Origin: Naegleria gruberi
Lineage: Eukaryota
Strand: one strand, 5' to 3'
Assembly: GCA_000004985.1 (NCBI GenBank)
Contig: GG739238.1
DNA: 3,007 bases
How positions within the stretch are numbered: the stretch's first letter is position 1; every line of letters starts with the position of its first letter. The notes beneath the pieces are model-generated. The model had not been told where the DNA came from. It ran no database searches and saw only the letters and a program-made list of their open reading frames with translations. A program made the position numbers and the translations under genes. This document shows positions 1-3,007 of the stretch, piece by piece.

Positions 1-147
1 CAAATCCAGATCAATAGCGACATTTGTAATTCCAGAATGGAGCTCCTCGATTTGGTGGCCTCTACTCTTAAAGCTATTAAAGAAGAGAAAAAGTATCACA
101 AGAAGGAGAAACGGATAGGTACATTTTGGACTGAACAAGCAAAATAA
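1..147 (+). CDS. 3' end (48 codons) of an ORF entering from upstream; unknown product with a K/E-rich tail
   Basis: Frame 1 is open from position 1 to TAA at 145-147 and reads QIQINSDICNSRMELLDLVASTLKAIKEEKKYHKKEKRIGTFWTEQAK*. No motif recognised. It could be the end of a host gene or of an upstream element ORF. Confidence 0.3.
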   Translation, partial: QIQINSDICNSRMELLDLVASTLKAIKEEKKYHKKEKRIGTFWTEQAK

Positions 148-476
148 GCAAGGACGTACAAATTGATTTTGGATGTCCAAAAACTTGTTAAGGTAAAATT
201 AAGATTTGTCCAAAAAGTTTGTTTATGAGTTTTTAATGAGTAAATCATTGAAAAATCACAATTAAATACCTAATAAGTGGAAATGATCAATGAAACTCCA
301 CTTCTCCTGTTTTTATTGTCATTTCTTTGTTGGATTTGTTGCTGGAGAATTTTTTTTCTTGAATTTGTCCTCAACATCTCTTGAATTGAATCTTTCGAGC
401 ATCATTAAAAGCACAAACAAAATGTTGCTGGCCTGTTTGTTTAAGGGTGGGCTAGCAAATTGATGTTGAACGTTCA

Positions 477-518
477 AAATGGACGTGTTGGTCCAGAGAT
501 TTTCTGGGCGTCCAATAA
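477..518. repeat. Copy A of a ~42-bp imperfect direct repeat containing palindrome TGGAC-gtgttg-GTCCA (480-495)
   Basis: aatggacgtgttggtccagagattttctgggcgtccaataat aligns to 558-598 aatggacatgttcgtccaaaatgtttctggaccaacaattt at roughly 75% identity. The 5-6-5 inverted repeat is conserved in both copies. Confidence 0.6.
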
Positions 519-557
519 TCAGTAAGCAAAATACGTTTGGGCCGTATTATTTATCTT

Positions 558-598
558 GAATGGACATGTTCGTCCAAAATGTTTCTGGACCAACAATT
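558..598. repeat. Copy B of the ~42-bp direct repeat containing palindrome TGGAC-atgttc-GTCCA (561-576)
   Basis: See copy A. The palindrome arms TGGAC/GTCCA are perfect, and the shared flank is (A)AAT ... TTTCTGG. Confidence 0.6.
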
Positions 599-668
599 TG
601 TATTTTGGACGACATAATGTACCTATCTGTTTCTCAAGGATGCTTTTAATCAAACCATTATCCGAATT

Positions 669-1394
669 ATGGAACAAATTCGAAGGAACGACGTTCATAA
701 TTGCTCATCTGGATGGAAACTTATACTTCAAACCAGAGATTTAGGGATGTTGGTTTCGATTAAGGAAGAAACCTTCAAACTTTACACTAGAAACTATAAT
801 GGTTTCTTATGGTTTATTACTGCATTCAATATTTCAATGGATGACACTTATGCTATTGAGTATTATGCAGCTTATCTTACAATTCAAGGTCAAACATCTC
901 GTGTTGAAGCCTTGAGACCATCCCTTCAATTTTGGGCCAATATTGAGAGAAGAGTTTTTCCAATTTCATGGTCTTATGATAAGATTAAAAGAGGAATTAT
1001 TTTTATTTGGTCCTTGATTGATAGAAAAGCTTTGAAACGTGATCCAATTTTCTATCATCATATTGAAGGTTTCATTCAGAGAAAAGATCATTATGATCCT
1101 TTCATTTTCAAACTCACTAGTGCCATGTTAGTCATTGGTTTCAGACTTTTCGCTAGACCAGGTGAATTAGCTAGACTCAAGTGGTGTTATGTTACAAAGC
1201 TTAGAAATGGTAACATCAAATTAGATCTCAGTGGTCACAAAACAGATTTCTTTCTACTAGAAAAGCCGATGACTATTGACAAGCATCTTGAAAATCCTTT
1301 AGTGTGTCCAGTGAAATTGCTTTTTGATTACATGTCTAATTCTGAGCGAAGTGAAGAATGGACTTGTTTTCATTGTAAACTTAATAAAATATAA
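669..1394 (+). CDS. Tyrosine recombinase-like protein (core-binding-like N-terminus plus first half of the catalytic domain; C-terminal HxxR / Tyr half absent). Possibly truncated or a pseudogene.
   Basis: 241-aa ORF. The frame is closed upstream by TAA at 615-617 and has A at -3 of the ATG. TYAIEYYAAYLTIQGQTSRVEALRPSLQFW resembles the YR N-terminal core-binding/SAM-like helix pattern. LVIGFRLFARPGELARLKWCYV matches box I (G-x-R-x-x-E-L-x-x-L-x-W, catalytic Arg-I). NIKLDLSGHKTDFFLLEKP fits the beta-hairpin Lys segment. CPVKLLFDY matches the CPVxALxxY(L) motif seen in phage-integrase, DIRS and Crypton YRs. The ORF ends 18 aa later (TAA 1392-1394), and the downstream frames up to 1523 contain no HxxR...Y pattern. 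Confidence 0.5.
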   Translation: MEQIRRNDVHNCSSGWKLILQTRDLGMLVSIKEETFKLYTRNYNGFLWFITAFNISMDDTYAIEYYAAYLTIQGQTSRVEALRPSLQFWANIERRVFPISWSYDKIKRGIIFIWSLIDRKALKRDPIFYHHIEGFIQRKDHYDPFIFKLTSAMLVIGFRLFARPGELARLKWCYVTKLRNGNIKLDLSGHKTDFFLLEKPMTIDKHLENPLVCPVKLLFDYMSNSERSEEWTCFHCKLNKI

Positions 1395-1429
1395 GTTGAG
1401 TATTTTTCCATGCTCAAAAAATTATCACA

Positions 1430-2518
1430 ATGGCCCCAACACCAACTACACCAAAGAACAACAAGAAAACGAAAGACCTTAGCTCACCTTCTGCAGGTAG
1501 CGAGCAACGAGTCATTGTTCTAACTCCTTCCACCTCAAATTCTTCTGATAGTTCTGCTATGCCTTCACCTCCTCCTGTTCAAGACACAAAGAAGAACAAG
1601 AAGAACAATCAACAAAAGATATCACCTGGCAAAGACTCAAACAACGCCAAGGTTGGTTCACAAGGTGCTTCTGCTCTCGCTTCTTCGATGGAATTGTTTG
1701 AGTCCAACCCATCTGAAGAGGTTTCTGGTAAAAGAGCAAGAGTTGCTGATGAACCAGATGATTGGTTTAAAAACCACGTCATCGACTCTTACCAAAGAAT
1801 GTTTGGTGAGTCATTGAAAGAAGATTTGCCGTTGGAAGAAGCTGTTTCTCTTCTATTCGAAACAGCCAATGCTCCATACGCTGACAACTTGGAATTCAAG
1901 AATAGAATGGCTGCTCTTGAATTGTTGTTCAGAAAAGAAGTAGACACTCCCATTCCAGATTCATCTGGTATAAAAGATATTAAAAGTAAAGGTTATTCTT
2001 TACTTTTAACAAACTCTTTTATCATCTCTCAAATCTGCAAGCGTTTGAGAGAGAGTGATACCCTTGATTTACCGCTTATTCTTCAAGGATTTGAATTTAT
2101 TCAGAATATTTCTGAGTTAAATCTAGTCTGTATTCGAATGGGCATTAAAAATGGCTTTGAAGCAGCTGAAAACTTCTCTAACAGCTACAAATCAGGAGGT
2201 TCACTTGACCAAATCACCTCCAAACAACAAGAGAAGGCGATTAAATCTGCTGAAAAAGTAAAAGCAGCAGAAACCATTGAAAAAGTCAGCAAATGGGCAA
2301 GCAGAACCCCTAATTTTCGTAAGTTCCCCACTAGATACGATAATAGACAAGCTGGTTACAACAACTACAACAACAACAACCACAACAACAACAACTTCAA
2401 CCAAGGACAAGGTAATAGTTACCAATCCAACAATCAAGGCTTCAGAAGATTCAACAATGCTCACCAAGCAAGTGGAACCGCTTCAAATTCCTCCAACTCA
2501 AACAACAACAATAAATGA
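1430..2518 (+). CDS. Gag-like structural protein candidate. It has a low-complexity S/P/K-rich N-terminus, a central ordered segment, a K/E-rich segment and an Asn/Gln-rich C-terminal tail. There is no CCHC zinc knuckle.
   Basis: 362-aa ORF with A at -3 of the ATG and yeast-like codon use. It lies immediately upstream of, and overlaps by 257 nt, an RT-encoding ORF in the +1 frame, which is the typical gag-pol arrangement. No recognisable catalytic or zinc-finger motif, so the gag assignment is positional. A host N-rich gene abutting the RT cannot be excluded. Confidence 0.5.
   Translation: MAPTPTTPKNNKKTKDLSSPSAGSEQRVIVLTPSTSNSSDSSAMPSPPPVQDTKKNKKNNQQKISPGKDSNNAKVGSQGASALASSMELFESNPSEEVSGKRARVADEPDDWFKNHVIDSYQRMFGESLKEDLPLEEAVSLLFETANAPYADNLEFKNRMAALELLFRKEVDTPIPDSSGIKDIKSKGYSLLLTNSFIISQICKRLRESDTLDLPLILQGFEFIQNISELNLVCIRMGIKNGFEAAENFSNSYKSGGSLDQITSKQQEKAIKSAEKVKAAETIEKVSKWASRTPNFRKFPTRYDNRQAGYNNYNNNNHNNNNFNQGQGNSYQSNNQGFRRFNNAHQASGTASNSSNSNNNNK
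2360..2401 (+). repeat. Imperfect (AAC)n trinucleotide repeat, 14 units with 3 variant units
   Basis: aac aac tac aac aac aac aac cac aac aac aac aac ttc aac encodes NNYNNNNHNNNNFN in the gag frame and poly-Thr in the pol (+1) frame. The antisense strand gives a spurious poly-Val ORF (2201-2467, minus). Confidence 0.8.
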
Positions 2519-3007
2519 TGCCAACATTCCTCTTGGTGGTCGTCTCTCTCGTTTTCACAGCCGATGGCAAGAATTCGGTGTTTCCAACACGATTCACGAT
2601 TGGATTCAAAACGGAATTCCAATAGATTCCGATTCAAATCGTTGGAAAAATTACCATCAGAGGAAATTCTCTACTACAGAGAAACAATGGATCCAAAAAG
2701 AGATTGGTTCCATGTTGAAAGAAGGAGTAATTGTTCACTCCCCAAACATCGTTATCAACCCTATAAACGTAGTTCCAAAGAAAGGGTCAGACCAATTCAG
2801 ATTCATTTTGGATCTAAGAAAGGTCAACGATGGAATAGATCCAGATTCCTTCAAAATGGAATCAGTGCAGAAAATCATGAAATTCCTATGCAAAGGAATG
2901 TGGGCATGCAAAATAGACCTAAAGAAAGGTTATTTTCACGTTCCCATCAAGGAGGAACATCAACACCTCCTAGGGTTCATATTCGAAGAAGAATTCTACC
3001 AATTTAC
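2457..3007 (+). CDS. Pol ORF, 5' partial: reverse transcriptase N-terminal region and RT domains 1-3, DIRS/Ngaro/gypsy-type. It continues beyond the window.
   Basis: Frame 0 is open from 2262 (stop TAA at 2259-2261) to the window end, with its first ATG at 2457 (A at -3). Translation: ...MLTKQVEPLQIPPTQTTTINDANIPLGGRLSRFHSRWQEFGVSNTIHDWIQNGIPIDSDSNRWKNYHQRKFSTTEKQWIQKEIGSMLKEGVIVHSPNIVINPINVVPKKGSDQFRFILDLRKVNDGIDPDSFKMESVQKIMKFLCKGMWACKIDLKKGYFHVPIKEEHQHLLGFIFEEEFYQF. Recognised motifs: GGRLxxFxxxW...W(I)xxG(I)xIxF pre-RT motif; VPKKxGxxRxIxDLRxLN (RT domains 1/2); IDLKKGYFHVPI (RT motif A with the catalytic Asp); LxFxxxxxxYQF preceding the expected LPFG. There is no protease (D-T/S-G) motif anywhere in the open frame between 2262 and the RT. 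Confidence 0.85.
   Translation, partial: MLTKQVEPLQIPPTQTTTINDANIPLGGRLSRFHSRWQEFGVSNTIHDWIQNGIPIDSDSNRWKNYHQRKFSTTEKQWIQKEIGSMLKEGVIVHSPNIVINPINVVPKKGSDQFRFILDLRKVNDGIDPDSFKMESVQKIMKFLCKGMWACKIDLKKGYFHVPIKEEHQHLLGFIFEEEFYQF

What the first reader, a model, noticed from the sequence alone, without database searches (positions are those of the whole stretch)
669..2518. Non-canonical ORF order: recombinase ORF sits immediately upstream of gag (35-nt spacer)
Known orders are gag-[YR overlapping]-RT/RH/MT in DIRS and gag-RT/RH-YR in Ngaro, PAT and VIPER. Here the YR ORF stops at 1394 and gag starts at 1430, leaving no room for terminal repeats between them. Either this is a permuted or new architecture (YR-gag-pol), or the YR ORF belongs to a different, adjacent or nested element copy such as a Crypton-like DNA element. 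Both are interesting.
Basis: inference. Interest (0 to 1): 0.7.

Follow-up and report, generated by a model that had tools for sequence, protein, structure and literature searches.

The report
Junction of two Naegleria DIRS-like retroelements
The recombinase ORF next to gag is not a new gene order: it is the broken-off front part of one Naegleria DIRS-like retrotransposon, joined to the 5' end of a second, different DIRS-like element, and both kinds normally read gag-pol-recombinase.

Summary
Both ORFs exist at the stated coordinates, but they do not belong to one element.

**Left part (1-1334).** This is the 3' part of a Naegleria gruberi-type DIRS-like element, here called family 1. It holds the end of pol and the first 222 codons of the tyrosine recombinase (YR). 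It is 98-100% identical in DNA to metagenome contig L004, which reads gag-pol-YR.
- The match stops at 1334. The catalytic HxxR and Tyr (about 105 codons) are missing.
- The last 60 nt of the ORF are read-through.
- The pol end is also split by a 530-bp MITE-like insertion (106-635). L004 shows the empty site.

**Right part (1335-3007).** This is the 5' leader, gag and start of pol of a different lineage, family 2. Its pol is 70-75% identical to L002/L005 and only 48% to L004.
- It also carries the start of its own long YR reading frame over pol (2519 onward).
- The break lies at the position where other copies and families have their 5' element boundary.
- The break shares ACATG with the target.

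**Relatives.** Five relatives are all gag-pol-YR. In three lineages a full YR is followed by only about 130-170 nt before a leader (and, in two of them, gag) reappears. A short YR-gag spacer therefore says nothing about order.

**Verdict.** This is an ordinary nested or adjacent insertion of one transposable element next to another. Interest is low.

The parts
1..105 (+). Family-1 pol, 3' end (C-terminus of the methyltransferase-like domain, '...ATFVIPEWSSSIWWPLLLKLLKKRKSITRR', frame 2). Frame 1 here is the overlapping long YR reading frame of the same element.
   Evidence: 100% DNA identity to L004 2940-3046. Aligns with the pol C-termini of L001 and L002.
106..635 (.). MITE-like insertion of about 530 bp. 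It has 23-nt terminal inverted repeats (106-128 and 613-635) and a target duplication AAG (103-105 and 636-638; 3 to 5 bp, ambiguous). It interrupts both pol and the long YR frame of family 1.
   Evidence: Inverted repeat I2, 91% complementary. L004 has the uninterrupted site AAGAAGGATGC. Folds far better than shuffles as single-stranded DNA, z = -6.2.
636..744 (+). Family-1 pol, last 35 codons ('MLLIKPLSELWNKFEGTTFIIAHLDGNLYFKPEI', frame 1), stop codon at 742-744.
   Evidence: Continues the match to L004. The rejoined pol C-terminus is about 99% identical to L004 pol.
669..1334 (+). Family-1 tyrosine recombinase, first 222 of 326 codons (frame 3, open from 618). Contains the ARPGE Arg and the HKTD Lys. 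Lacks HSLR, the second His/Trp and the catalytic Tyr.
   Evidence: 95% identity to P0001/P0116 over residues 1-222. 98% DNA identity to L004 3042-3731, ending at 1334. Invariant residues from alignment A1.
1330..1334 (.). Junction. ACATG is shared by the interrupted family-1 YR gene (L004 'GATTACATG|GACACTG') and by the sequence that precedes the leader in relatives (L003 'TAACATG|T', L004 'AAACATG|T', L008 'CATG|G').
   Evidence: Direct comparison of sequences.
1335..1429 (+). Family-2 5' leader. Contains a dyad ATTCT-N11-AGAAT (1339-1359), a 31-nt block identical to L002 (1351-1381), and CATGCTCAAAAAA (1409-1421) just upstream of the gag ATG. Positions 1335-1394 also form the read-through tail of the truncated YR ORF.
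   Evidence: 81% identity to L002 117-212. Alignment A2 of leaders from four lineages. Dyads listed.
1430..2518 (+). Family-2 gag (362 aa, frame 2).
   Evidence: 99% to N. gruberi P0007, 56% to L002 gag, no blastp match to L004 gag.
2457..3007 (+). Family-2 pol, N-terminal part of the reverse transcriptase (frame 3). The ATG at 2457 overlaps gag by 62 nt. Runs off the window.
   Evidence: 70-75% identity to L002/L005 pol, 48% to L004 pol. Weak RVT_1 match, E 1.2e-4, below the Pfam cut-off because only the start of the domain is present.
2519..3007 (+). Start of family 2's own long second reading frame over pol (frame 2, beginning right after the gag stop). In relatives this frame ends in the recombinase domain.
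   Evidence: 163 codons with no stop, against 9.4 expected; 0 of 2000 synonymous shuffles are stop-free. Aligns to residues 11-149 of P0123, a 907-aa long-frame-plus-YR protein.

Best explanation
The window spans the boundary between two different DIRS-like tyrosine-recombinase retrotransposons of Naegleria gruberi or a very close relative.

The left element (family 1) is represented by the end of pol and the front two thirds of its recombinase gene. It is dead twice over: a MITE-like transposon sits in its pol/YR overlap, and its recombinase gene is cut at codon 222.

The right element (family 2) starts at nt 1335 with its normal 5' leader and continues with gag, pol and the start of its own long recombinase reading frame.

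Both families have the usual DIRS1-like gene order: gag, then pol (RT/RNase H/methyltransferase-like), overlapped by a long second frame whose non-overlapping 3' end encodes the recombinase.

The most likely history is inferred, not shown. A circular DNA copy of family 2 was integrated by its recombinase into the recombinase gene of a resident family-1 copy, with crossover inside a short identical sequence (ACATG) and no target duplication. This is as in the published DIRS1 integration model.
For: (1) Window 1-107 and 636-1334 match L004 2940-3731 at 100% and 98%. The match ends at 1334, while the L004 YR runs on to 4046.

(2) The full-length N. gruberi YR is 326 aa. The window copy aligns only to residue 222 and lacks invariant H269, R272 and Y304.

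(3) The two halves have incongruent relatives.
- Window YR: 95% to L004 YR, 37% to L002/L005 YR.
- Window pol N-terminus: 70-75% to L002/L005, 48% to L004.
- Window gag: 56% to L002 gag, no match to L004 gag.
- Pol C-terminus upstream of the YR: about 99% to L004.

(4) All relatives with enough sequence are gag-pol-YR: L002, L003, L004, L005 and L009, plus L001 with pol-YR.

(5) From 1336 the window matches the leader upstream of gag in L002.
- The point where similarity starts is homologous to the 5' edge of the 246-nt direct repeat in L004 (61/4079).
- It is also homologous to the point where L002 stops resembling the post-YR regions of the other elements.
- Contig L008 starts at the same point.

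(6) The right element has its own long stop-free second frame from 2519.

(7) ACATG is shared between target and element junction. PMC3266345 describes DIRS1-like integration as recombination between a 3-bp junction sequence and an identical genomic sequence, without target duplication.
Against: The 3' end of the family-2 copy lies outside the window, and the N. gruberi genome could not be reached with these tools. So it is not shown that the rest of the family-1 recombinase gene resumes beyond the insert.

The 5' flanks of L002 (GATC) and L004 (TTTGG) do not carry ACATG, so a strict target core is not established.

The evidence for the 5' terminus rests on three junctions plus one contig end.

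An assembly chimera at a 5-nt overlap cannot be excluded without reads.
Confidence: 0.88

Rival explanations
1. A single element with a permuted or new gene order, YR-gag-pol.
For: The ORFs are adjacent and on the same strand. In circular or head-to-tail form, every DIRS-like unit has YR just upstream of gag. Relatives show this with spacers of about 130-170 nt.
Against: The YR ORF lacks its catalytic third. It is preceded by its own pol 3' end. It belongs to a different lineage from the gag-pol that follows. The gag-pol element carries the start of its own long YR frame. All relatives are gag-pol-YR.
Confidence: 0.02
2. An internal head-to-tail junction of one family (a tandem array, or the B1-A2 junction of split direct repeats) that has suffered a deletion. 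The deletion would have removed the YR 3' end and the short trailer.
For: L004 has its leader plus the start of gag repeated 32 nt after the YR stop (97% over 246 nt). L009, L010 and L011 are circular permutations of one 4097-nt unit. L003 and L006 show the leader after the YR stop.
Against: The leader, gag and pol to the right of the junction are not those of the family on the left. L004's own leader and gag differ completely from window 1335-2518.
Confidence: 0.03
3. Two neighbouring elements in a transposon cluster were joined by a non-integrative event (deletion, illegitimate or microhomology-mediated recombination), or by a mis-assembly, rather than by recombinase-mediated insertion.
For: Only 5 nt of shared sequence lie at the break. 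N. gruberi scaffolds carry family-1 YR and family-2 gag models a few genes apart (EFC36890 and EFC36894 on one 196,593-nt scaffold), so such clusters exist. Other gag models are rearranged (P0007/P0008 tails).
Against: The break coincides with the homologous 5' boundary seen independently in L004, L002 and L008. A random deletion endpoint would not be expected to do this.
Confidence: 0.15

Closest known systems
DIRS1-like retrotransposons (DIRS order; Dictyostelium DIRS-1 and relatives; Piednoel et al. 2011, PMC3266345)
   Same: Gag ORF. Pol with RT, RNase H and a Dam-like methyltransferase-like domain. A long second ORF overlaps pol, and its non-overlapping 3' end encodes the tyrosine recombinase. 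Integration occurs at a short identical sequence without target duplication (inferred here). DIRS1-like elements were already reported in N. gruberi (7 sequences, 6 families, too corrupted for their tree).
   Different: No inverted terminal repeats or internal complementary regions of the usual size (tens to hundreds of nt) were seen. Relatives show only 25-30-nt inverted arms around the YR-stop/leader junction and about 130-170 nt of non-coding DNA in all. Units are about 4.1 kb, at the small end of the reported range (3974-6283 bp).
PAT-like elements (Pat1, Toc3, kangaroo) with split direct repeats (Szitenberg et al. 2014, PMC4157794)
   Same: Methyltransferase-like domain present. In L004 the 5' leader plus the start of gag is repeated in direct orientation just after the YR, as expected for A1...B1-A2.
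   Different: The B2 repeat and the true 3' end were not seen. The same picture would arise from a tandem array. RT-based placement was not done.
Nested DIRS-1 insertions in Dictyostelium centromeric clusters
   Same: One YR retroelement sitting inside or against another, leaving truncated ORFs side by side.
   Different: Here two different families are involved. That DIRS-1 piles up in centromeres is in PMC7192593; that it does so by nested insertion is from my own knowledge, not tested here.
Crypton DNA transposons
   Same: Encode a eukaryotic tyrosine recombinase.
   Different: Cryptons have no RT. Here the YR ORF is contiguous with, and overlaps, a pol gene.

Membership tests
DIRS order (tyrosine-recombinase retrotransposons) | Reverse transcriptase / RNase H pol | tested here: met
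   RVT_1 matches at E 3e-26 (L004), 9e-20 (L002) and 3e-24 (L009). The window holds only the first part of the domain (E 1.2e-4, below the cut-off), but it is 70-75% identical to L002/L005 pol.
DIRS order (tyrosine-recombinase retrotransposons) | Tyrosine recombinase with Arg...Lys...HxxR...Tyr | tested here: met
   Met for the family: R163, K191, H269, R272 and Y304 are invariant in 8 sequences. Phage_integrase match is weak, E 1.8e-4, below the cut-off. Not met for the copy in the window, which stops at residue 222.
DIRS group sensu stricto (Dirs1-like + PAT), as against Ngaro/VIPER | Methyltransferase-like domain after RNase H | tested here: met
   Dam (PF05869) matches at E 7e-6 to 8e-4, all below the curated cut-off, at residues about 500-600 of pol in L002, L004 and L009. 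The window keeps only the last 70 or so residues.
Dirs1-like | Long overlap of the YR ORF with pol, catalytic domain in the non-overlapping 3' end | tested here: met
   A stop-free second frame of about 620 codons over pol, ending in the YR, in L002, L003, L005 and L009. In the window it is 163 codons from 2519. 0 of 2000 synonymous shuffles are stop-free.
Dirs1-like | Inverted terminal repeats plus internal complementary regions | tested here: inconclusive
   Only 25-30-nt inverted arms (73-80% complementary) flank the junction in L003 and L004, and none were found in L009. No complete integrated copy with both ends was available.
PAT-like | Split direct repeats A1...B1-A2-B2 | tested here: inconclusive
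   L004 61-306 equals 4079-4324 at 97%, which fits A1/A2. The contig ends before any B2. A tandem array gives the same picture. L009-L011 assemble as a circle.
Crypton | YR-only DNA transposon with no reverse transcriptase | tested here: not met
   The pol 3' end is contiguous with, and overlaps, the YR ORF in the window and in L001-L005.
MITE (for the 106-635 insert) | Short non-coding insert with terminal inverted repeats, a target-site duplication and an empty site elsewhere | tested here: met
   23-nt inverted repeats. AAG duplicated, and L004 shows the empty site. Multiple genomic copies and the transposase superfamily could not be tested.

The most novel reading that the evidence does not exclude
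In Naegleria-type DIRS-like elements, the natural replicating unit may be a 4.1-kb circle or head-to-tail array with only about 135 nt of non-coding DNA. The recombinase gene would then natively end about 35-75 nt before a palindromic (A)ACATG(T) crossover core, followed by a conserved dyad-bearing leader. The recombinase would insert copies at look-alike ACATG sites, including inside other DIRS-like elements. Gag, a roughly 600-residue product of the second frame and the recombinase could be made as one read-through protein, because the long frame starts directly after the gag stop in the same frame.
Probability: 0.2. Interest if true: 0.45.

Novelty: new member of a known kind. Interest (0 to 1): 0.15.

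Why it matters
The main value is as a correction. ORF adjacency in a 3-kb slice is not evidence for a new retroelement architecture, and this candidate 'YR-gag-pol' class can be dropped.

The side results are modestly useful:
- They give a first structural outline of the Naegleria DIRS-like families, which the 2011 survey could only list as corrupted sequences. The outline covers gene order, a very short leader and trailer, a probable crossover position, and a 1.9-kb dual-coding stretch.
- They identify a MITE-like element with a matching empty site.

Tried and rejected
**Exact-protein look-ups that failed.** Look-ups for the window's gag and YR ORFs and for N. gruberi proteins P0001, P0002 and P0007 found no contig. 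ENA contigs carrying P0120 (family-2 gag, 4239 nt) and P0123 could therefore not be fetched.

**Collection scans.**
- A scan of JGI metagenomes for the 25-nt leader block found nothing.
- A YR-profile scan of the same collection found only two short contigs (L006, and L007 = L001).
- Scans of bacterial/archaeal genomes (gag, YR) and of viral contigs (YR) found nothing.

**Searches that were empty or uninformative.**
- Pfam on the window's YR fragment and gag gave nothing usable.
- Rfam and tRNA searches of the window were empty.

**Ideas considered and dropped.**
- That 106-635 might be an intron or a natural pol-YR spacer. Rejected because L004 has the uninterrupted site and the insert has inverted repeats plus a duplication.
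- That the 13-nt similarity GAATGGAC(A/T)TGTT between the insert and the leader (D10) is meaningful. By my own estimate it is at chance level for a 3-kb AT-rich window.
- That consecutive GenBank accessions EFC35398/EFC35399 mean an adjacent YR and gag. Rejected because the two scaffolds differ in length (2202 vs 2227 nt).
- That the odd C-terminal tail of P0007/P0008 is encoded by the insert or elsewhere in the window. I did not see it when reading the three plus-strand translations and the minus-strand ORF 519-698; no systematic six-frame search was run.

Full report
**What is in the window.**
ORF listing confirms 669-1394 (241 aa) and 1430-2518 (362 aa) on the plus strand, 35 nt apart. The first is 95% identical to N. 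gruberi predicted proteins of 326 aa, XP_002679188 and XP_002669634. The second is 99% identical to N. gruberi XP_002668143. The sequence therefore comes from Naegleria gruberi or a very close relative. DIRS1-like elements were already reported there, as 7 corrupted sequences in 6 families (PMC3266345).

**The recombinase ORF is a fragment.**
The full-length protein carries the invariant residues R163 (ARPGE), K191 (HKTD), H269-x-x-R272 (HSLR) and Y304. These were read from an alignment of eight family members. It also gives a weak Phage_integrase match.

The window copy aligns only to residue 222 ('KLLFDYM'). It then reads 'SNSERSEEWTCFHCKLNKI*', which is not recombinase sequence. At the DNA level the match to the best relative stops at nt 1334.

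**The recombinase fragment has its own pol upstream.**
- Window 1-107 is 100% identical to L004 2940-3046.
- Window 636-1334 is 98% identical to L004 3042-3731.
- L004 is a 4324-nt metagenome contig with gag (159-1277), pol (1237-3150) and YR (3153-4046) in that order.
- Frame 2 of 1-105 joined to frame 1 of 636-744 gives the pol C-terminus '...IPEWSSSIWWPLLLKLLKKRKSITRRMLLIKPLSELWNKFEGTTFIIAHLDGNLYFKPEI*'.
- This aligns with the pol ends of L001 and L002, where the YR start overlaps the pol stop.

**The pol end is split by an insertion.**
The 530 bp in between (106-635) are absent from L004, which reads AAGAAGGATGC across the site. The insert has 23-nt terminal inverted repeats (I2) and a duplicated AAG. 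It folds much better than shuffled versions, z = -6.2. It is a MITE-like insertion, not a spacer or an intron.

**The right-hand part belongs to another lineage.**

| Window part | Closest relatives | Other relatives |
|---|---|---|
| YR fragment | 95% to L004 YR | 37% to L002/L005 YR |
| Pol C-terminus upstream of YR | about 99% to L004 pol | 42-45% to L002/L005 pol |
| Leader 1336-1433 | 81% DNA identity to L002 117-212 | not the L004 leader |
| gag | 56% to L002 gag | no detectable similarity to L004 gag |
| Pol N-terminus | 70-75% to L002/L005 | 48% to L004 |

(Figures.) The two halves thus have opposite nearest relatives. A single element would not show this.

**The canonical order.**
Every relative with enough sequence is gag-pol-YR: L002, L003, L004, L005 and L009. 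L001 and L006 show pol-YR. Pol carries RVT_1 and a weak Dam-like methyltransferase match. This places these elements in the DIRS group proper rather than Ngaro/VIPER, using the criteria in PMC4157794.

A second reading frame is free of stops over the whole of pol, about 620 codons, and ends in the recombinase domain. It usually starts right after the gag stop in the gag frame.
- Synonymous-codon shuffles expect 31-34 stops there.
- None of 2000 shuffles is stop-free.

In the window the same frame is open from 2519 to the end: 163 codons, 9.4 stops expected. It aligns to the start of a 907-aa long-frame-plus-YR protein of a related family. The right-hand element therefore carries the beginning of its own recombinase ORF in the normal place.

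**Why YR and gag are so close, here and elsewhere.**
In relatives, a complete recombinase gene is followed after a very short stretch by a leader, and by gag where the contig reaches that far.
- L004: a 32-nt trailer, then a 97% copy of its own leader and first 148 nt of gag (61-306 = 4079-4324).
- L003 and L006: the leader follows the YR stop. L003 ends, 150 nt after the stop, in the conserved motif that precedes gag; L006 ends at the start of the leader.
- L009, L010 and L011, from three sequencing runs, are 100% identical circular permutations of one 4097-nt unit, with 137 nt between YR and gag.

This could reflect tandem arrays, split direct repeats collapsed by assembly, or circular DNA. 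I could not tell which. Either way, a short YR-gag spacer is normal for head-to-tail junctions in this group. It does not show a permuted element.

**The junction itself.**
An alignment of leaders from four lineages shows a shared layout:
- (A)ACATG, then T;
- a short dyad (window ATTCT-N11-AGAAT at 1339-1359; L003 GTTCT/AGAAC; L004 TTATC/GATAA; L009 GTTCTTC/GAAGAAC);
- a block that is 31/31 identical between the window and L002 (1351-1381);
- CATGCTCAAAAAA, then the gag ATG.

Three observations place the 5' element boundary at the same aligned position as the window's switch from family 1 to family 2 (1334/1335):
- the 5' edge of the L004 direct repeat;
- the point where L002's 5' flank stops resembling the post-YR regions of the other elements;
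- the start of contig L008.

The interrupted target reads GATTACATG|GACACTG in L004. The window reads GATTACATG|TCTAATTC. ACATG is thus common to the target and to the element's presumed circle junction.

This fits the published DIRS1 model of recombination at a short identical sequence without target duplication. I therefore favour a real integration of a family-2 copy into a family-1 recombinase gene.

This last step is inference.
- The 3' junction lies outside the window.
- The N. gruberi genome could not be reached.
- L002 and L004 do not have ACATG in their 5' flanks.

**Verdict.**
The ORFs are real, but the recombinase ORF is a truncated, doubly disrupted remnant. The 'new architecture' reading is refuted. 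The 'different adjacent element' reading is right, except that the neighbour is another DIRS-like retrotransposon and not a Crypton.

This is an ordinary junction of two transposable elements. The elements are poorly described members of a known kind.

Noticed in passing
window 106-635: A MITE-like insertion of about 530 bp with 23-nt terminal inverted repeats (GAGAAACGGATAGGTACATTTTG...), a 3-5-bp duplication (AAG/AAGGA) and internal GGAC-N6-GTCC-like palindromes. An empty site is present in L004. The transposase superfamily is unknown.
   Followed up: partly
window 2519-3007 (frame 2); L003 1201-3981, L005 959-3721, L009 1040-3850, L002 1177-3881: A second reading frame runs stop-free over all of pol and ends in the recombinase. 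It usually starts directly after the gag stop in the gag frame, so a Gag-X-YR read-through product is conceivable. It matches the known 'long ORF overlap' of DIRS1-like elements but is very long here (about 1.9 kb).
   Followed up: partly
L009 1-4127, L010, L011: Three Logan contigs from different runs are exact circular permutations of one 4097-nt gag-pol-YR unit, with a 30-nt end overlap. This means a tandem array, collapsed terminal repeats or extrachromosomal circles.
   Followed up: partly
L001 1712-1735, L003 about 3960-3981, L004 about 4026-4046, L005 about 3722-3745, L006 about 1656-1677, L009 about 3850-3870: A nucleotide motif ATCTCGGGACAATACCCATT is conserved at or just after the recombinase stop codon, across lineages whose proteins are only 35-50% identical. 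In some it is coding and in others non-coding. It is a likely cis-acting site. It is absent from the window because the YR 3' end is missing.
   Followed up: no
L003 3991-4020 / 4085-4114; L004 4042-4066 / 4119-4143: Inverted arms of 25-30 nt (73-80% complementary) bracket the YR-stop/leader junction. This resembles joined short terminal inverted repeats around a circle junction.
   Followed up: no
window 1351-1381 and 1409-1421; L002 134-164; L008 1-100: The leader block GTGAAGAATGGACTTGTTTTCATTGTAAACT is 31/31 identical between elements whose gag is only 56% identical. In L008 (and L002) the leader is open and in frame with gag, encoding 'NSEQREEWTCFHCKLNK'. In the window it is out of frame with gag. 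CATGCTCAAAAAA precedes the gag ATG in four lineages (a variant, CATCGCTAAAAAA, in L009).
   Followed up: partly
window about 2342 (gag codon 'RYDN'): Two N. gruberi gag gene models on different scaffolds (P0007, P0008) share another C-terminal tail, 'LSSTVSVLPSCNKHRKFIYVFNNKS', after RYDN. I did not see it in the window's reading frames. It is either a shared rearrangement or insertion in other copies, or a shared predicted intron.
   Followed up: no
L004 46-60 versus L004 3441-3455 (= window 1044-1058): The 5' flank of the L004 element is complementary over 15 nt to a stretch of the family-1 recombinase gene (E 0.29, not significant). If real, it would be another insertion into a recombinase gene.
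   Followed up: no
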